A DNA stretch of 64,000 bases, taken from contig OZ024742.1 of NCBI GenBank assembly GCA_964016885.1, forward strand, positions 117,366,001 through 117,430,000, given 5' to 3'. Origin of the DNA: Eledone cirrhosa (lineage: Eukaryota). The translations under genes and the position numbers were made by a program. Below, piece after piece: positions 5,058 through 54,923 of the stretch; position 1 is the first letter of the stretch; every line of letters begins with the position of its first letter. The notes under the pieces are model-generated. The model saw only the letters and a list, made by a program, of their open reading frames with translations. It searched no databases and was not told where the DNA came from.

Positions 5058-7095
5058 TTATCATCATCTTCATCATTTTTATGTCTATTTTCCATTTTTG
5101 CATGGGTTGGACAGGTCCTTTTCAGCTCAACATCTTTTCATTTGTTGCGTTCCTTCTGTGAGTCTCACCATTTTAAGATCAGCTCTCACCACCTTTACCC
5201 AGGTTTTTTGGTCTGCTCTTACTGTGGCTTCCTTTCACTGGAAATTCCTGGAAATTCTTCACCAGCAATCATCATCCATGTGCTTCACATGTCGATACCA
5301 ATTCAGTCTTCTCTCTTGCATACCACTTTTGATTCTATATAAACTCACTTTCCCCCCTCAGTTGATCCAAGCTTTGGCATTCTTTCACATTTATATTGCC
5401 CATCCAACAATGCATGGTTGTTTCATTTCCCTCCAGTGTACACATATTCTCTGCAGTCAACGCCCATGTTTTACTTCCATGCAACATCACACTTTGCACA
5501 CAGGCATCATCTAACCATTCTTTTGAACATAGTGAGAAACCTTTTGTTGTCAACAGTGGGAGTAGCTCTGTATACTTCTTCCGTCCTATCTCTATTCTCA
5601 CTATTATGCTCTTTGAGCACCTTCCTCGACTTCTAATTAGTTCACCTACGTAGCAGAAGCTATCAACCACTTCTATGGATCCTTCTTGTGTTTGGAAAAG
5701 GTTTATATCACTGATGCTCTTCCCATCGATTGCCCCTGTGCATCAAGTACATACAAAGACTTGCTTTCCTGTTAGTCTGTATGCTAACCACTACACCTAT
5801 TGTGTACCCAAGATTTTTATTGTGTACATGTATAGAGTTTATGTCTACTCCTTTTTTGTCATATCAAGCAGGGACATTTCCCTGATAATATCAGTGTCCT
5901 GTCTTCTTTCCTGCTTACCAACACTTTTGACAGTAAATTCTGTTTCCATATTTTTTATGGATTCAGCTATAAGGACAAGATCATTCACATAGAGAAGTTG
6001 CCATGGAGATCTTGTCTTAAACTTCTCTGTTATGGCCTGGAGGACCAAAATGAACAGCAATAGTCTGAGATCTAAAGCCTGATGAATTCCTACCTGTACC
6101 TTGAATTCATTATTAAACTCACTTCCTACTCTCACTTTACTGACAGCTTCTCTATACATGGCTTGCACCACTGCTCTTACAAGCCATTTTTCTATACCTA
6201 ATTTTCTGAAGGACCACCAGATAACTGATCGAGTTACTCTGCCACAGGCCTTTTCTAGAACAAGAAAATCTAAATATAGTGGCTTATTCTTGGATTGGAA
6301 CATGTAGTTGCCTCATTAAGAAGAGGGCATCTATAGTACATAAAACCAAACTGCATCTCATCTAATTTGACTTTTTCCCTAATTAGTTGTGCTATAACTC
6401 TTTCCATCACTTTCATAACTAGATTATACTGCTGTGCCACTTATTGGGTATATCTCCGTCCTGCATTACCTAATTGACTATGCGTGTTACTAGTTGAACT
6501 CCTACTTCTCTCGATGCTTTTAGTATATCGCTGTCGATCTCTGACAATCCTGTGGCTCCCCCATTCTTCATATGCTTGATTGCTTCTTTGATCCTATAAC
6601 TGTAAATTTCAATTGCTAGTTCCTCTTTTAGGTAAGTTGTTGGTAGTCTCTCTATTTTTCCCTTTCATTCTCCACATTCATCAGCCTCTCATAGTATCAT
6701 TTCCAGGCCTCTTTCTTTTGAGCACCAGTGATACTAAGTACACTAGTGTCATTTCTAACACACTTTTCCCCAACAACATCCCAATTCACACTGGTGCACT
6801 GCTTTGCAATGTGGAACACTTTATATTCTTGATCCTGACGTTGCAAGACATGGGCAAACATTTTTTTTTCAGCCTTTTTCCAAGCTATGTACACTTGTCA
6901 TCTAGCTTCTTTTTTAGCTACTTGGTACTGGCCTCTGTTATCCATATTTTCTATTCTTTCCATATCTGTCTCTTGGTTTTAATGGCTCTGTCCACTGTGC
7001 TGTTCCACCACCGGGCTGGTGCTTAGCTCCAACCTCAAGTCTCATCTGTGAGTACAACAGGTCATCATGTAAGAATTTCCAATTGTCCTCTGTGA
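5058..7095 (-). mobile_element. RTE-clade LINE, 5'-truncated and internally deleted
   Basis: Minus-strand ORF pieces LYLDFLVLEKACGRV...VQVGIHQALDLRLLLFILVLQ...WQLLYVNDLVLIA (RT motifs, degenerate YADD) and VDSFCYVG...DACVQSVMLHGSKTWA. (CAT)n tail at ~5060-5075. Confidence 0.85.
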
Positions 7096-9587: not shown

Positions 9588-10130
9588 AAAGGAGGTCTGG
9601 AAATGTTAATATGAGAGGCTGATGAATGTAGATTTTGAATGGGAGGAAGAAAAACTACCCCCAACTTACCCAACAGAAAGACCAGCTATTGAAGTTAAGT
9701 TAAAGGGTCAAGAAGCAATCAAAGAGATAATGAATTGTAAAGCTGCAGGACCATCAGAGATTGCTGCTGAAATGCTAAAAGCATTGGGAGTAGTAGGAGT
9801 TGAACTAGTAACCCACATAGTCAATCAGGCAATACAGGACAGAGTCATACCCAATGACTGGTGCAGCAGTACAATCATAAATTGCTACAAGAGTAAAGGT
9901 GATTCTCTAGAAAGGAGCAACTACAGAGGAATAAAACTAATGGATCAAGTTATGAAAGTGAGAGAAAGAGTTATAGCACAACTAATTAGGGAAAGAGTCA
10001 AATTAGCTGAGATGCATACATGAATGGTGATTGATAGGTGAAGAAGTGTCAGTGGATGGAAGCTGCAGCAGAGGTAGACAGCGAAAGACCTGGGGAGAGG
10101 TGATGAAAGCTGACCACAAATCACTAAATG
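9588..10130 (+). mobile_element. RTE-clade LINE fragment (RT N-terminal part fused to a 3' piece)
   Basis: AIKEIMNCKAAGPSEIAAEMLK...IPNDWCSSTIINCYKSKGDSLERSNYRGIKLMDQVMK (RT domains 0-2), then jumps to the GSCSRGRQRKTW 3' region. Confidence 0.85.
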
Positions 10131-14441: not shown

Positions 14442-14674
14442 GTAATCTAGCTGTCGTCTGTTCTACAGTGTGGATGTAATTCACTTCGCGCAGAAGTTTT
14501 GTTCAAATTTATTGCGGAAATTTTGTGAGTTCAAATTTAATTTTGATACTATTGTGTAGCTTGACCCCCCGTCTGAACTGTCAGGCGGTGGGTCAGCTCA
14601 TCTTTACCCCTCCTAGAGGTGAAAAACCTATTTTAAAAATTTTGTGGAAAAAAAAGTTCAATTGTCTGACAGAA

Positions 14675-16568
14675 ATGTTAAACGAAGCGAACGAAAATAG
14701 TGGTGGGGGGACAGCGGTAAGAGTTGTAAGCTCGCACGCTTTAGTCCCCTCTTCCTTCCCAACTAACGTCATAGAGAAGGAAGGAAAAATTAAAATAAAA
14801 ACAGACGAATCTGCGGAGAAAAAAAATGATGAAAACACAAATCTGGACATGGATTCCAACAACGAAAAAAAAAAATTGAAAAATTGCATGACAATACTAA
14901 CACCACAAACAAAGACACAACAAACACAAAAATAACATTTGAAAATAACACCATAACAGAAAGCAAAGCAGACGACAAGATTTTATTTGCACAGACAACA
15001 AAGAAATCTTTGACTTATATACCGGAAAATATTTCAGATGTGGCACGAAGAATCACAGACGCCAAACAATACATAAGTGAAGGAGAGAATGTTATTTTAT
15101 CGGTAAAAATGCCTCAAGAATTCACCAAAGACATTGAAAGCCGAACGGTCAAGTTCCGCACCATCAACAACAGTACAAAAAAACCTGAACAGCCTTCTCA
15201 AGCAGATATCAAAACAGTACTCACAGAAGTACTTAATGAAACCACATAAGAAAAGACAGACTGTATGGAAGCCTAGCAATTATCATGAAGAACGAATCGG
15301 CGGCAAAAAAATGTGCTTTGTCACCGATTCGTTCGAAAAATTTTACCTTTTATCCATCTTATATGGGTAAAAGAACTCAACGCATATGGCTGGATGCAAT
15401 GATGCCAGATGTGGACTACTGCTGGCTCATAGCTGGCTTCATCGATCCAGTGAATGACAACGTGATTTCCATTGGGAAAACCACAGGCAATGCGTTCAGT
15501 GGAACAGGTATAGAGCTGGTAGTGCAAATGAAGCCTGAACGCATCGCCCAAATACCCGACAGAATCCTATTAGAGGGCCACGGGTATATAAACATTAGCG
15601 TGGAGGGGAGAAGGCCGTCCTGCCATATCTGTGCAGGCAGAGGGCACCTGAAGGCCGCTTGTCCCCAACTCAACAAAAAGAAAACCCTGCTACCAACACC
15701 AGCTCCACCACCACCACTACAACAGATAAACAAACAACAAAACTCAGTCCCACCCAACCCGTCCCTCAGTAAAACCACACCACCACCACAACACAAACAG
15801 TCACAACACATTACCCCAAAACAAAATACAGGCCCACCCAACCTCTCACTCAATAAAACAACACAACCACCGCAGACACAACACACAACACAGTCTAACA
15901 TAGTGACATCCATCTCCCCCACAAAGAAAACCAACACGGAAACATTACCAGCAAACATACCTCTTCCCTCCAACACTGAAGATAACCCAACGAATTCGGA
16001 GGAAGAAACGGAGTCCTTCAGACAGATTAAAAGGAAAAAAAGAAAACATGTGCAAAACACACAAGGCCAAACAACCCCCACCCAAATCTCAACACAATCC
16101 AACAAAACAGAAAACACCCCTCCAGCAACAAACAAAACCAAACCTTCCCCTCCCCTCTTCGAAACACTCACACCATCCGAAAAAAAGACATTACACTATA
16201 CTTACATCAACAGAAACAATAATAAATTAAATGAACTCATATACAATAATCCTTCGGTACAAACCGAAGGTGTAAACTTTGTTTCTTCAGAAAACTACCC
16301 ACATTTAAAATTAATAAAGATCCCAATGAACCTCTACCAAAAACTAAAAAAGGATTTTAAGGAGGACGTAGGACCACCCTCTGTCAAACCAATAAACCGC
16401 GTCCTACTAAAAAGCTTTCCCCCTCCCCTTCCCCTCCCCAACACAACTCCAAACACCCCAACCCCACCACACACTGACGACCCCACACCACCACAAGACA
16501 CCCCTTCACCCAACACCCCCGACCCCATGGAAGTCGTGCAACCCGAACCCCGGGAAGCGGAAAGGTAG
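14675..16568 (+). pseudogene. Tx1 ORF1 (gag-like zinc-knuckle protein) split over three frames
   Basis: ATG at 14675. Pieces 14675-14935, 14884-15249 and 15285-16568 are in different frames; an A11 run at 14865-14875 is a likely slip site. CHICAGRGHLKAAC fits CX2CX4HX4C. Pro/Thr-rich tail with a KRKKRK basic patch. Confidence 0.75.
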
Positions 16569-16601
16569 GTCTCTACACTCTCCTTTGGCTCTGCCGCCCA
16601 C

Positions 16602-19600
16602 ATGGATGTGTTAAGAGTAGGATGTTTGAATTCACGTGGCCTGGGCTCAACTTGGAAGCAAGCAAAGCTTCTAAATGACCTCAGGTCATGTAGTATAAAT
16701 GTAATGGTTATCTGTGAGACTCGAATCAGCGTCGTGCGGCAGCTGGCCCCCACCTTCGATGACTTTGAGGTGCATGCATCTCTCTGTCAACCTGGAGGTG
16801 GGGGTGGGGTTGTCGTACTGCTGCAAAAACACCTGGGTCTTGCCGTACAGGTTGTGCACTCGGACCCGGAGGGTTGTTTGTTGGTGCTAGACGTTGGCAG
16901 TAGTGAAAGTGCGGCCTTGAGACTGGTCGCCGTCTACTCCCCTTTCGGAGCTGAACGGCCCGACTTCTTCCATCGTTTGGAGACTTTTCTGGGAACGTCG
17001 CGTTCCCTGCTTCTAGCGGGGGATTGGAATGACATCCTAGATGCACGTTCGGACTATGCAGGAGCATGTCCTAATAGAGGGGGGTGTGACAGCCTCAAGG
17101 GGTTACTCGACCGTTTTAACTTGGTCGATAGATATCGACTAGATTTTCCAACTGTGCCTACCTGGACTTGGAGAAACCACAGTGGTCAATCTAGATCGTA
17201 CTTAGATAGATTCTTAGTTAGAAGTAAGGATAGGGACATATTAAGCTGTCCAGAAATGCGCACGGTTGGCTACACGGATCACAAATTAGTGACCTGCGTA
17301 GTCAATCTCGAGAAAACACATAAACAGGGTCCCGGTTACTGGAAACTTAATTTGTCTTTACCGGCAAAAGAGACTTACAGAAACCGGATTAGCAGATTAG
17401 TTAAGGAGAGGTTGACGGGTGCAATCGTCAACAACCGATGGTGGGCATCTCTCAAAAGAGAGATTAGAACGGAATCAATAAGTTATAGCAAGATGTTAGC
17501 TGCCGATAGGAATAGAAACGAGAAAGAATTAACAGGTAAATTAGAAGAGGCAATCAAGAGCGAAGACGTGGCCAGTGTGCTGGCATCGAGGACGGCCTTG
17601 AACCAGTTTTTCGATGCAAAGCACGAAGGCTGCGTCATTCGAAGTAAAATACGTGCTCTAGGTAATGAGGGGGCCAAAGCCGTTGGCTGGGCCCGCGTGA
17701 CAGAAGCTAAGAGTGGAAATCGATCCACCATCCGGTCGTTGCAAGACGAAGATGGACGGGTGATCCGGGAGCCTAAGCAGATGTGCGAGGCCTTTCAAAG
17801 GCACTTTTCCCGATTGTTCGGGGGAGGCGAGGGTCCGGGCGGGGGCGTGGATTTCGGTCCATACCTCGACGGCCTGCCGCGTCTCTTGAGCGAAGAGGCA
17901 GAGTCCTGCGAGGGACCAATCTCGGCTGATGAGATCGGAGATGCGCTGAGCCAATGCAGCAGACGCAAATCTCCAGGTCTCGATGGTATACCTTACGAAC
18001 TTTATTTAGCAATGCCGGTCTTCTTCTCCGAACTCCTCGAAGTGGTCTACTGCAATTGGCAGCAGAACGGGAGAATTCCTTGTTCTGTAGCCAAGGGCGT
18101 AGTCACGCTGGTGAGGAAGGACGAGAACAAGGGAGATAGTATAAATAATTTTCGGCCCATAACCCTGCTAAACACAGAGTTAAAGATTTTGGCCAAGGTG
18201 TTAGCAAAGAGGTTGGCGCTTGTCGTGGGTGGCCTGGTGGGAGATGCGCAGACATGTGCTATCCCATCCAGGTCCATTCACGATAACCTCCACCTCATGC
18301 GATACATCATAGAGAGGGTTGGCAACAAACCCGGCTTCGGTGGGGCCCTGATCAACTTGGATCAGTCTAAGGCCTTCGATAGGGTCGACCATGGTTACCT
18401 GGATGCGGTGCTAGCGGCGGCTGGGTTCAGTCCTGTTTTCAGAGGCTGGATCACTGCCTTACATAGCAACCACATCTGTTCTAGGATCAAGGTGAACGGC
18501 TACCTTTCGAAGCCGTTCGAAATCACACGATCCATTCGACAGGGGTGCCCTCTCTCCTCCCTTCTGTACGTATTGACTCTCGAGCCTTTACTGAGGAAGT
18601 TGGAGTTGTTGCAGGGTATCCCCCTGGAACCAGGATTGAGCAAAGCGGTGTCGGCCTACGCCGATGACGTAACAGTAATGGTATCGACCGACTCAGAGAT
18701 CGAGGCGATCGGTACCTTACTGGAGGATTACGAAAGGTTGTCAGGAGCGAAACTGAACCGGGAAAAATCCATCGGGCTGCAACTCAGAATGTGGAGAGGC
18801 AGACCAATGCCTCCTGACGGTGTCGTCGGACACTGGACGGAGGGCCCGGTAAAGTTGCTTGGGGTCTGGTTTGGACCGGACCTCCAGGTGGAAAAGAACT
18901 GGGACGAGGTTACGAACAAGGTGTTTGCACTAACCCAGAAATGGGCCAAGTGTAAGCTGTCCCTAAAAGGCCGGGCGGAGGTGGCAAACATTTACATAGC
19001 GTCCGTCATTTACTACCGCCTGACTGTCGTGCCTTGCCCTAAGGAAACACTCACCACCATGGAACGCATGCTCTTCCAATTTCTTTGGAAGAAGCGCCCT
19101 CCTATGGTGAGAAGATCCATCTGCTGCCAACAACCTTCGAAAGGAGGGCTGGGGATGCCGTGGTTGATGATGCGTAGGCACGCATTAAGGCTACGGCACC
19201 TACAGGTATTCCTCACTGGTCAACCGGTGTGGGCTCCGTTCGTGAAATGAGCCTTTCCAAGACTCGTCTCGCTCACCGAGCTACAGTCCTGGGTCAAGCA
19301 AAGATCCGGAAAACTGGGAGACTGGCACACTGAGTGTGCTCAGACGCTCAGGGCTCTCTGGCAAGCGGGCCAGGCCATCGGTGGAGAATCCACCTCATCA
19401 TTCTATAGAGGGCTGGTGGCTAGCAGGGGCGATGACACCCTTGGAGAGTCGCTGGACATGGAAGAAGACGAACTGGCCAGCCTGTTCGGTAGGACTTTCG
19501 GCCCAGGACCAATGGACAACTTCCAGAAGTCACTGGCCTGGCAGTGCTACCGGGGGGCTCTACCCGTTCGAGAGAGGCTCTACAGACACGGGCGCCCGGG

Positions 19601-20039
19601 CAGGGATCCCTCAAAAAAGATTTGCCCTAGATGCGTGCGTCACGAAGAAACCGTTGCGCACGCATTGGTGCAATGTCCGGGCGTGGCTGATCTGTGGGGC
19701 TACGCCGAACGACCGCTGTCGCGGGTGGCGCCGATTAAATTGACCGCCGAGTCCGTGATGATAATCAAACCGCCTCCCCTCTTCACAAAGGAAGCAAAGG
19801 CGGTTTTTCTGTGCGTAATAGCCATGTTGAAAGAGGTTGTTTGGTGGACACGATTGAAAGGTCTGAGGTCAGGCAACTTCCTCTCTGGCCATAGTCTGGT
19901 CTACTTCTTCCGATATCACTTCGGAAGAAGGATAAGAATGGAGAGAGAGGTGCTTGGCCACAGGCAGTTTTATGAAAGGTGGATGATAGTGGCGAGAATG
20001 GCTCGTGTAAATGGGCCTTCTCTGTATACCATCCTGTAG
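16602..20039 (+). CDS. Tx1 ORF2: endonuclease/reverse transcriptase with one in-frame TGA at 19248-19250
   Basis: EN motifs LNSRGL, ICET, GDWN, SYLDRF, TDH. RT motifs KSPGLDG, FRPITLLN, DQSKAFDRV, IRQGCPLS, YADD. The frame stays open after the TGA into 19416-20039, which carries the CPRC...ETVAHALVQC zinc finger. Confidence 0.9.
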
Positions 20040-22590: not shown

Positions 22591-22781
22591 TATATTTAAA
22601 AAAAAGGAAAAGAATGACTTCACTTGTAGTTCGAAACAATTTAATTTAATTTTATAATATTATGATTTTACAATTTGGTTTTGAAGATCTACAAAACCAA
22701 ATTGTAAAATTATAATATTATAAAATTAAATTAAATTGTTTAGAACTACAAGTGAAGTCATTCTTTTCCTTTTTTTTTAAA

Positions 22782-35888: not shown

Positions 35889-36336
35889 TATAAGGAAAAG
35901 AAATTGAAGATGCAACTGAAGTCTTTTAAGAATATTTATTTACTGTACTGGTTTCACAGTTCTTATGATTTTCAAAAGAAAAAGTGAGATGGAGGGTGTG
36001 TGTTTCTGTTGTGGTTTGTCTCGCATCTGGTTCACGTTCTAAAGTTCTTCCTGTATAAATCTGAAAGAACTTTCGAACTTGAACTTAAATGTACTTAATC
36101 ACGTGACAGTCATCAACCAACCAAATTACATTTTAAAGAAACAGCAATCTGTGATACTTTTTTCATATAAAACAGAAAGAACTTTCGAACATGAACCAGA
36201 GGGAAGACAAACCACAACAGAAACACAAACCCTTCATCTCAATTTTACCTTTGAAAATCATAAAAACTGTGAAACTGGTAAATAAATAAATATTCTTAAA
36301 AGACTCCAGTTTCATTTTCAATTTCTTTTCCTTATA
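35889..36336. repeat. Long inverted repeat (~175-bp arms, ~95-bp spacer)
   Basis: 35889-36066 is the reverse complement of 36161-36336 with scattered mismatches. Confidence 0.85.
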
Positions 36337-42287: not shown

Positions 42288-42417
42288 AATTTGTTGTGAT
42301 TCAACCATATGACATGGATAAAAGAATTTCTAGGTAAAATTATTTTGACTTTCCAGTCAAAATAATTTTACCTAGAAATTCTTTCATTCATGTCATATGG
42401 TTGAATCACAACAAATT
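42288..42417. repeat. Near-perfect hairpin (63-bp arms, TTCC loop)
   Basis: 42288-42350 versus 42355-42417, 2 mismatches. Confidence 0.92.
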
Positions 42418-50349: not shown

Positions 50350-50742
50350 ACCATCATCATCACCATCATTTTTATGTCTGCTTTTCCCTGCTTGCAAGGG
50401 TGGGATGGGAACTGATTCTGGCTTGATTTCTACAGCTGGATGCCCTTCCTAACACTAACCTCATTTACAGTGAGTGCTGGGTGCTTTTTTTCCATGGCGC
50501 CTTCCAGTCCACTTTACAGTGTGGGCTAGGTGCTTTTATGCTGTGGCACCTCCACAACCACTTTGCAGTGGAATGATAGGGACCCCAGTCCCTATCATCT
50601 CATTTCTACAGCTGAGTAAACTGGAACAATGTGAAATAAAGTGTCTTGCTCAAGGAAACAACACATCACCCGGTCTGAGAATTGAACACACAACCTTTCG
50701 ATTGCAAGGCCAATGCTCTAACCACTAAGCCATGTGCCTCCA
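50350..50742 (-). mobile_element. tRNA-headed SINE with RTE-like tail
   Basis: Minus-strand head GGAGGCACATGGCTTAGTGGTTAGAGC (A box)...GTTCAATTC (B box)...CCTTGAGCAAGACACTT, joined to the GGAAGGGCATCCAGC body and a (GAT)n tail. Confidence 0.75.
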
Positions 50743-50752
50743 TATATATATA

Positions 50753-50887
50753 TAGAAGTGGTTACACAACAGTTAGTTCACCATACCGAGAACAATTGTT
50801 TCACCTTAGCGGATCCTCAGCTTGTAATCCGCTAGGTGAAACAATTGTTCTCGGTATGGTGAACTAACTGTTGTGTAACCACTTCTA
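50753..50887. repeat. Fold-back hairpin (~61-bp arms) containing a minimal type I hammerhead core on the minus strand
   Basis: Arms 50753-50814 and 50827-50887, one bulge. Minus strand reads TACAAG-CTGAGGA-TCCGCTAAGGT-GAAAC-AATT-GTT-CTCGGTA. Confidence 0.85.
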
Positions 50888-51027
50888 CCTAACTCGTCCC
50901 ATGGACTGAGTGCCCTACCACTATGGATATTACCTTCCAGTGTACTTCCTCTATATATCTAACAAAATACACCCCGTCCCACCACCCCCACCCCATCCAC
51001 ACCACCCCATTCTATGTAAAGTTATGT

Positions 51028-51479: not shown

Positions 51480-51920
51480 AGAGCTTCACTGCTTACCATC
51501 AGAGGTGTTGTTGATTTATTTATTTTGCCTCTTTTATTGTAAGCATATGTATTTTATGAAGTTTATGGCAGTTTTTCTTCTTTGCAAGCATTCTTTGGTT
51601 TTCATAATGTAATTTGAATCTAGAAGCATGGCTGTTACACTAACATGTTGCAGGTTGCATGTTCATAACAAGTGTATGATGCTTATAAGGCTGGCACCAT
51701 ACTATGATATTGATCTTGGCATCACATTGGGATACCAGTATTATTTCAATATTCTGTTTGGAATTCTGTATAATATTGACATATTGTCTGTTAATGTTTG
51801 AAGACCTTACGCTATTGTTTTAGAGTAGTGACAGTCTCACTTACTTTAATTTTCAGCTGTTTGCTGAAAATTAAAGTAAGTGAGACTGTCACTACTCTAA
51901 AACAATAGCGTAAGGTCTTC
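51480..51920 (-). mobile_element. Degenerate Penelope-like GIY-YIG C-terminal relic ending in a perfect hairpin
   Basis: Weak similarity to the 56409-56684 region. Perfect 58-bp inverted repeat 51800-51857 / 51863-51920. Confidence 0.45.
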
Positions 51921-54852: not shown

Positions 54853-54923
54853 CTACCAAAGATTTAGATTCCTTTCTAAAAAGAAAGGAATCTAAATCTT
54901 AGGTAGATTTAGATTCCTTTCTA
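54853..54923. repeat. Short hairpin plus a third direct copy of the arm
   Basis: AAGATTTAGATTCCTTTCT / AGAAAGGAATCTAAATCTT, followed by another ATTTAGATTCCTTTCTA. Confidence 0.8.

What the first reader, a model, noticed from the sequence alone, without database searches (positions are those of the whole stretch)
50753..50887. Minimal hammerhead ribozyme locked inside its own antisense fold-back
Seen: the minus strand has a complete core, CUGAGGA / short stem II CC-GCUAA-GG / GAAAC / palindromic AAUU loop / GUU, with a partial stem I. Directly upstream is a near-perfect inverted copy of everything 3' of CUGAGG. Established: PLE minimal type I hammerheads have a 1-bp stem III with a palindromic loop and cleave as dimers. 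Inference: the inversion breakpoint sits at the ribozyme 5' boundary, suggesting snap-back priming by the PLE RT at ribozyme-defined ends. The hairpin would also sequester the ribozyme, acting as an off-switch and a dsRNA source.
Basis: partly seen in the sequence, partly recalled or inferred. Interest (0 to 1): 0.75.

Follow-up and report, generated by a model that had tools for sequence, protein, structure and literature searches.

The report
Penelope palindrome centred on transcription start
This hairpin is one of thousands of mirror-image stubs left by a Penelope-type jumping gene; its centre likely marks where the element's RNA begins rather than where its ribozyme cuts, and the two halves were likely copied separately from that RNA, so this copy is probably debris and not an off-switch.

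Summary
The hairpin (50753-50887) and the minus-strand hammerhead-like motif are real. They are the 3' terminal repeat (pLTR) of a Hydra-clade Penelope-like element (PLE), present twice head-to-head in (TA)n, with a 66-nt tail (50888-50953) on one arm. This architecture is published; the family has over 8,000 arms.

They do not pile up at the cleavage site (2.7%). Ends at -76 often carry an untemplated G, sometimes on both arms. In a sister family the pile-up lies 30 nt below a TATA box. The site is therefore likely the capped transcription start.

The tail-less arm is the longer one in 20 of 53 fold-backs, and in this copy; simple snap-back cannot produce that. Two cDNAs from two RT start sites, joined head-to-head, fit best. 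This copy's ribozyme is truncated and mutated in stem I. No RNA data were available. The scan's unreviewed notes hold the same reading for other genomes.

The parts
50742..50752 (.). (TA)n target tract, left flank
   Evidence: sequence; family copies are flanked by (TA)n
50753..50828 (-). Tail-less arm: element positions -76..-1 (0 = first base of tail); its 5' end A(-76) at 50828 is the family's hotspot and inferred capped transcription start
50787..50824 (-). Hammerhead motif: stem I 5' strand 50824-50821 (A.C mismatch at 50823), CUGAGGA 50820-50814, U-CC-GCUAA-GG-U 50813-50803, GAAA 50802-50799, C-AAUU-G 50798-50793, GUU triplet 50793-50791, stem I 3' strand 50790-50787
   Evidence: same U..U/GUU layout as published Hydra-clade HHRs
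50827..50829 (.). Junction microhomology ATC shared by both arms; C50829 reads as an untemplated G just 5' of A(-76) on the minus arm (inferred cap copy)
   Evidence: the same junction occurs at 11 loci with the tail on either or both arms
50827..50887 (+). Tailed arm: element positions -62..-1, lacks CUGAGG so has no ribozyme core; 1-nt deletion in loop II
50888..50953 (+). 66-nt PLE 'tail' (start of the next unit; runs into the ORF in full-length copies L126, L127), followed by a short TA tract
50350..50741 (-). Neighbouring tRNA-like SINE reading away from the hairpin (not part of the element; left end approximate)
   Evidence: sequence; its head has 19 hits in 17 fetched loci; A/B-box reading is recalled knowledge

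Best explanation
The hairpin is a short head-to-head insertion of the 3' end of a Hydra-clade Penelope-like retrotransposon, likely made from two separate cDNAs, one of which likely ran off the capped 5' end of the element's RNA. Shown: identity of the element, the one-sided tail, the (TA)n target, the end hotspot at -76 with an untemplated G, and no hotspot at the cleavage site. Inferred: the pLTR promoter fires at A(-76), at the top of hammerhead stem I. The RT/GIY-YIG protein nicks both strands of (TA)n and primes one cDNA at position -1 and one at +66. Its 3' end (..ATC) annealed at the GGATCC site of the other cDNA, and repair fixed the palindrome. The ribozyme is a passenger lying between the start site and the RT start sites. 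Cleaved RNA is not the usual template. This copy's motif is probably dead.
For: Identity: full-length copies L126 (pLTR-tail-ORF-pLTR, unit about 2.54 kb) and L127 carry RWR, DKT, YRDDGL and GIY-YIG-type motifs; L124 has the CxCX5C linker, CxxC and CxH, as defined for Hydra. Hotspot: departures from the template are 197 of 2594 at -76, 439 of 2397 at -77, 180 of 1958 at -78 (Fisher p<1e-17). G is the departing base in 44 of 100 listed at -77, against 15 and 24 of 100 at the neighbours (counted by eye). In 30 arms read, 22 truly end at -76 and 14 have G; L133/134, L129 and L149 have the extra base on both arms with 1-nt spacers. Family B: CCAAT at -90, TATAAATA at -36, 16 of 30 arms end at 0..-12 and none at -13..-60; stem I starts at -6. 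Cleavage site: 215 of 8108. Two cDNAs: tail-less arm longer in 20, tailed longer in 20, within 4 nt in 13 of 53; L057 has the tailed arm at -77 and the other at -317; the window's junction recurs at 11 loci with the tail on the short arm in 8, the long arm in 2, both in 1. In vitro, a PLE protein cuts and extends both strands, starts RT at two sites that bound the tail, and uses uncleaved RNA (PMC11167929). A 5' untemplated G is read as a possible cap copy in L1 (PMC9341517).
Against: No direct RNA evidence for the start site or a cap. Family A has no TATA box; its initiator-like CC-A-TTMC and the upstream GCGCATGCGC site are read from recalled consensus. 8 of 22 true -76 ends lack G, and in L132 the G may belong to the other arm. 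The peak is broad (-64..-82, shoulder to -101) and rich in short palindromes (AGCT, GGATCC, ATTA), so microhomology contributes. Family C shows no peak at its ribozyme (4 of 30). Some family B 'ends' may be subfamily differences (L193, L206, L208). Central deletions after insertion could blur arm-length asymmetry. Arm ends were hand-curated from two aligners that differ by a few nt.
Confidence: 0.7

Rival explanations
1. Self-priming (snap-back or U-turn): one cDNA turns and copies itself, the second arm is trimmed at -1 by the endonuclease, and central deletions later make the arms unequal.
For: Proposed for Adineta Penelope palindromes (PMC3846280, there on an antisense template). Arms usually share subfamily variants (18 shared variants in 46 fold-backs). 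Some centres are near-perfect palindromes.
Against: A tailed first cDNA must be the longer arm, yet the tail-less arm is longer in 20 of 53, by 240-1000 nt in L057 and L090. Centres with an extra base on each arm and a 0-1-nt spacer leave no room for a priming loop. The same junction occurs with the tail on either arm.
Confidence: 0.14
2. No special RNA end: truncation is random and junctions collect where short palindromes and AT/TA words allow annealing to the other arm or to (TA)n.
For: Minor clusters at -33, -45/-48, -64, -70 and -89 sit on AT/TA words or palindromes. Family B's 5-nt junction is a quasi-palindrome.
Against: It does not explain the untemplated G at one position, blunt joins at -76/-77 (L040, L049), the sharp drop in ends beyond -101, or the 30-nt spacing from TATA in family B.
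Confidence: 0.09
3. The ribozyme defines the ends, by self-cleavage, circularisation or RT stalling at its structure.
For: The hotspot coincides with the top of stem I in families A and B. The motif is conserved, with compensatory stem II in sister families.
Against: No excess at the cut site (215 of 8108; 0 of 151 curated ends at -36..-41, with two arms placed at -41 by one aligner). RT reaches -76 only after unwinding the fold. Family C has the motif but no peak. The family C fold-back at window 51800-51920 has no ribozyme.
Confidence: 0.05
4. This copy is a selected regulatory hairpin (ribozyme off-switch, dsRNA or small-RNA source).
For: Any read-through RNA would fold into a 61-bp duplex that buries the motif. 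PLEs yield small RNAs in Adineta.
Against: About half of tailed copies (53 of 98) have an inverted arm, so the form is a routine by-product. The motif here is truncated and mutated (+4.7 against -1.7 kcal/mol for the family from -76). The adjacent SINE points away.
Confidence: 0.02

Closest known systems
Hydra-clade C-terminal-EN Penelope-like elements (Craig et al. 2021, PMC8557442; Hydra-1_Obim, Hydra-1_Ajap, Penelope-n_HM)
   Same: Unit under 3 kb, single RT+GIY-YIG ORF, RWx, DKT, CxCX5C, (TA)n target, HHR near the 3' end with U..U around stem II (14 of 26 Hydra rows in File S2) and GUU (10 of 26), and an inverted truncated copy with an antisense HHR (Penelope-13_HM).
   Different: A different family from Hydra-1_Obim (24 of the first 43 aa identical by eye; different HHR). 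Stem II has only 2 bp, shorter than in any Hydra row listed. The tail is 66 nt against the usual 30-40.
Inverted-pLTR plus one-sided tail insertions of D. virilis Penelope and Adineta Pen2/Pen3 (PMC2377424, PMC3846280)
   Same: Head-to-head pLTRs, tail on one arm, palindromic junction, promoter elements in the pLTR.
   Different: The passages read explain the junction by self-priming or leave it open. Here the arm lengths and extra G point to two cDNAs and run-off at a capped start.
PLE hammerheads (Cervera and de la Pena 2014, PMC4209133)
   Same: Type I core, short palindromic stem III predicted to work as dimers, and motif pairs on opposite strands already noted.
   Different: By their terms this is canonical-like (1-2 bp helix III plus palindromic loop), not a min-HHR. 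It lacks the G10.1-C11.1 pair.
Poseidon PAc in vitro (Frangieh et al. 2024, PMC11167929)
   Same: Two RT start sites bounding the tail, both target strands cut and extended, uncleaved RNA as main template.
   Different: Other clade; in the main text read, the paper does not derive inverted copies or their centre from this.

Membership tests
Hydra-clade PLE | Single ORF with RT and C-terminal GIY-YIG-type EN linked to this terminal sequence | tested here: met
   L124, L126, L127 translations; the copies read have frameshifts or stops. Pfam gave no family above cut-off for three fragments, so the call rests on motifs.
Hydra-clade PLE | RWK-like and DKT motifs, CxCX5C linker, CxxC and CxH around E/N, no CCHH | tested here: met
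   RWR and DKT in L126; CSCRKPEAC, CGLC, CPH in L124 against the definition
Hydra-clade PLE | (TA)n insertion, unit under 3 kb, pLTR/tail/inverted copy | tested here: met
Hydra-clade PLE | Placement in the Hydra clade by RT phylogeny | not tested
   Reference proteins were only seen in a paper supplement; no tree was built.
Type I hammerhead ribozyme | Core C3-A9, G12-A15.1, U16.1, H17 | tested here: met
   CUGAGGA / GAAA / GUU; conserved in 58 family arms, with recurrent variation mainly at N7 and the stem I bulge
Type I hammerhead ribozyme | Helix II closed by R10.1-Y11.1 | tested here: not met
   U.U flanks a 2-bp stem; the same U..U occurs in 14 of 26 published Hydra rows and in sister families with compensatory stems (1126 hits against 32 control)
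Type I hammerhead ribozyme | Intact helix I | tested here: not met
   In this copy: cut at -76 and an A.C mismatch. The family motif has 4 bp plus a 6-bp distal helix.
Type I hammerhead ribozyme | Self-cleavage as monomer or dimer | not testable with these tools
   Needs an in vitro assay. The monomer's predicted MFE is not the hammerhead fold.
Non-LTR retrozyme | Tandem non-coding units each with an HHR | tested here: not met
   Copies are single or head-to-head and trace to a coding PLE; definition
MITE / DNA transposon | Fixed length with symmetric terminal inverted repeats | tested here: not met
   Variable 5' truncation and a one-sided tail

The most novel reading that the evidence does not exclude
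In Hydra-clade PLEs the pLTR promoter fires at the first bases of hammerhead stem I. The 5' end of the transcript then carries a short-stem ribozyme, while the read-through 3' copy carries the full one. The thousands of palindromes are a fossil map of capped start sites written by double-ended target-primed reverse transcription, which would explain the long-known head-to-head pLTR without self-priming.
Probability: 0.55. Interest if true: 0.6.

Novelty: new member of a known kind. Interest (0 to 1): 0.37.

Why it matters
The locus itself is ordinary retrotransposon debris. The family data bear on an open question: how PLEs make inverted terminal repeats with a one-sided tail, and what their hammerheads do. 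If the reading holds, palindrome centres give PLE transcription starts from genome sequence alone, the two in vitro RT start sites explain both arms, and ribozyme-cleaved RNA is not the transposition template.

Tried and rejected
Rfam scan of the window: only miRNA-like hairpin matches below cut-off, no hammerhead family. The first genome search with the whole hairpin returned only similar hairpins; it was judged biased and replaced by a tail-only anchor. Pfam on three ORF fragments: nothing above cut-off. Sequencing runs: no RNA holder listed, so nothing follows on expression. DNA contigs of X1, X4 and X5 hold the repeat, but no listed piece spans the stretch, so they neither confirm nor question this junction; an assembly artefact is unlikely because the asymmetric form recurs at many loci. 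Within-family covariation is weak: no compensatory double change was seen in 58 arms. The 1.5 kb upstream of family B copies L196, L198 and L216 had no hit to the family A protein, so family B's 3' region is unexplained. Lunse et al. 2017 (dimer cleavage of PLE hammerheads) was not held and is recalled only. A sequence look-up in the scan's notes found nothing. MITE and retrozyme readings were rejected (see membership).

Full report
Observation. The window is G000:C3:117366001-117430000 in a 3.0-Gb genome; an octopus-type host is my inference from the repeats and the protein likeness below. Bases 50753-50887 form a near-perfect inverted repeat (MFE -109.2 kcal/mol, z -21, 0 of 200 shuffles). 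The minus strand has CUGAGGA-U-CC-GCUAA-GG-U-GAAA-C-AAUU-G-UU. Rfam reported no hammerhead.

What it belongs to. The hairpin had 367 candidates, and all 40 scored were full hairpins. Their flanks showed a further tail on one side and (TA)n on both. Because that query selects look-alikes, I anchored on the tail alone: 2,120 exact hits, of which I fetched the first 100, all on contig C1. Two were segmental duplicates and were dropped, leaving 98. A 20-nt pattern inside the arm gives 8,108 hits. Long copies run upstream into an RT/GIY-YIG ORF, and two are full length: L126 (pLTR-tail-ORF-pLTR, unit about 2.54 kb) and L127. The motifs RWR, DKT, CxCX5C, CxxC and CxH match the Hydra clade as defined in PMC8557442 (section 11, passages and supplement parts 1-2 read). 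Pfam found nothing above cut-off and no tree was built. With the tail's first base as 0, the window copy is a tail-less arm (-76..-1, minus strand) joined head-to-head to a tailed arm (-62..+65, plus strand) through ATC. An inverted 5'-truncated copy plus a one-sided tail is the published PLE layout (PMC8557442; PMC3846280 and PMC2377424, passages). Hammerhead pairs on opposite strands were noted in PMC4209133 (parts 1-2 of 4 read).

The ribozyme. The family motif has a 4-bp proximal and a 6-bp distal helix I around a variable bulge (58 arms; recurrent variants mainly at N7 and the bulge; no compensatory double change). U..U around stem II and GUU are common in published Hydra motifs (14 and 10 of 26 rows, counted by eye). 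A pattern for that layout that excludes the family's main form gave 1,126 hits against 32 control, with several families whose stem II differs but pairs. The family motif is therefore a plausible ribozyme; cleavage is untested. The window copy lacks the distal 5' strand and has G(-71)>A; its hammerhead fold evaluates to +4.7 kcal/mol against -1.7 for the family from -76. The plus arm lacks CUGAGG.

Where the arms end. Ends were curated by hand from two aligners: 98 tailed and 53 inverted arms. They range from 0 to beyond -1592. The per-base end rate is 0.025 in -64..-82, against 0.005-0.006 downstream, 0.010 at -83..-101 and 0.002 further up. 22 of 151 ends lie at -75..-78 and 0 of 151 at -36..-41 (two arms fall at -41 with one aligner). 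Both ends lie in -64..-82 in 14 of 53 fold-backs, at least one in 25. Genome-wide, departures from the template are 197 of 2594 at -76, 439 of 2397 at -77 and 180 of 1958 at -78, and 215 of 8108 at the cleavage site (an adjacent T of (TA)n would hide some ends there).

Why -76. The departing base is G in 44 of the first 100 listed at -77, against 15 and 24 of 100 at the neighbours (by eye; p 1e-5 and 0.004). Of 30 arms read, 8 were plain substitutions and 22 true ends (19 loci), 14 with G. Several palindromes carry the extra base on both arms with a 1-nt spacer. L146 shows an A-run of ORF sequence joined to G-A(-76), as a template jump would give. An untemplated 5' G is described as a possible copy of the cap for L1 (PMC9341517, passages). 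A(-76) sits in an initiator-like word, with a GCGCATGCGC site about 45 nt upstream (recalled consensus); there is no TATA box. Sister family B (19,910 exact hits; Hydra-type ORF downstream in 3 of 30 loci, 36-53% identity) has CCAAT at -90 and TATAAATA at -36 from CUGA. 16 of its 30 arms end at 0..-12, none at -13..-60, and stem I begins at -6. Family C (69 hits) shows no such peak (4 of 30), which counts against generality.

How the two arms arise. Snap-back from a tailed cDNA needs the tailed arm to be the longer. It is longer in 20 of 53, the tail-less arm in 20, and 13 are within 4 nt. The window copy is of the second kind. About 46 of 53 inverted arms stop within 4 nt of -1 (read). The window's junction recurs at 11 loci, with the tail on the short arm in 8, the long arm in 2 and both in 1, so it forms repeatedly and is not one mobile hairpin. 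PMC11167929 (parts 1-2 of 4 read) shows a PLE protein cutting and extending both strands, starting RT at two sites that bound the tail, and using uncleaved RNA. Two cDNAs joined head-to-head are the simplest account. Self-priming plus central deletion (PMC3846280) remains the main rival; arms do tend to share subfamily variants (18 shared against 274 differing positions in 46 fold-backs), which both models allow.

Off-switch or dsRNA. Read-through RNA would bury the motif. But the form is routine (53 of 98 tailed copies), this motif is decayed, the upstream promoter region is absent and the neighbouring SINE reads away. Expression could not be examined.

Novelty. The architecture, clade and motif type are published. 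I did not find the start-site/cap explanation of PLE palindrome centres in searches of the open library; subscription papers such as Lunse 2017 (recalled) and the bioRxiv supplements were not seen, and only part 1 of 5 of the retrozyme preprint was read. I had recorded my reading before the look-up. The scan's unreviewed notes then showed the same reading in other genomes (46 findings match the words, 8 shown); they are not independent evidence. Verdict: new family of a known kind, ordinary locus, with a testable mechanistic lead. Interest 0.37.

Noticed in passing
window 51800-51920: Perfect 58-bp hairpin that is a fold-back of sister PLE family C, cut 3' of its hammerhead, so it holds no ribozyme.
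   Followed up: partly
window 35889-36336; clearer in L025, L026, L199: Decayed fold-back of a fourth family in TA-rich flanks; intact copies read as a minimal hammerhead with a U3-A8 core variant and a 4-bp stem II.
   Followed up: partly
window 22603-22772, 42288-42417, 54859-54922: Further near-perfect hairpins with no match in the loci fetched up; the last has three alternating copies of a 19-mer.
   Followed up: no
L189-L218 (family B): About 20,000 exact copies of another Hydra-type hammerhead with a 4-bp stem III; many head-to-head pairs lie only 4-17 nt apart, below a CCAAT/TATA promoter. The region upstream did not match the family A protein.
   Followed up: partly
L146 and L137, just upstream of position 1500 in element orientation: A-run directly before the extra G at -76; in L146 the A-run follows same-strand ORF sequence, as if RT jumped from a capped 5' end to a poly(A) tail.
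   Followed up: no
L186: Tandem repeats of an approximately 39-nt piece of the inverted arm ending at the -76 site.
   Followed up: no
window 14480-20039: Near-intact LINE with ORF1-like frames and an 893-aa endonuclease/RT frame (16569-19250); decayed RTE-like fragments at 5335-6312 and 9610-10023 (clade names recalled).
   Followed up: no
98 tailed arms: A second, looser cluster of arm ends at about -465 to -590, inside the EN-coding region; unexplained.
   Followed up: no
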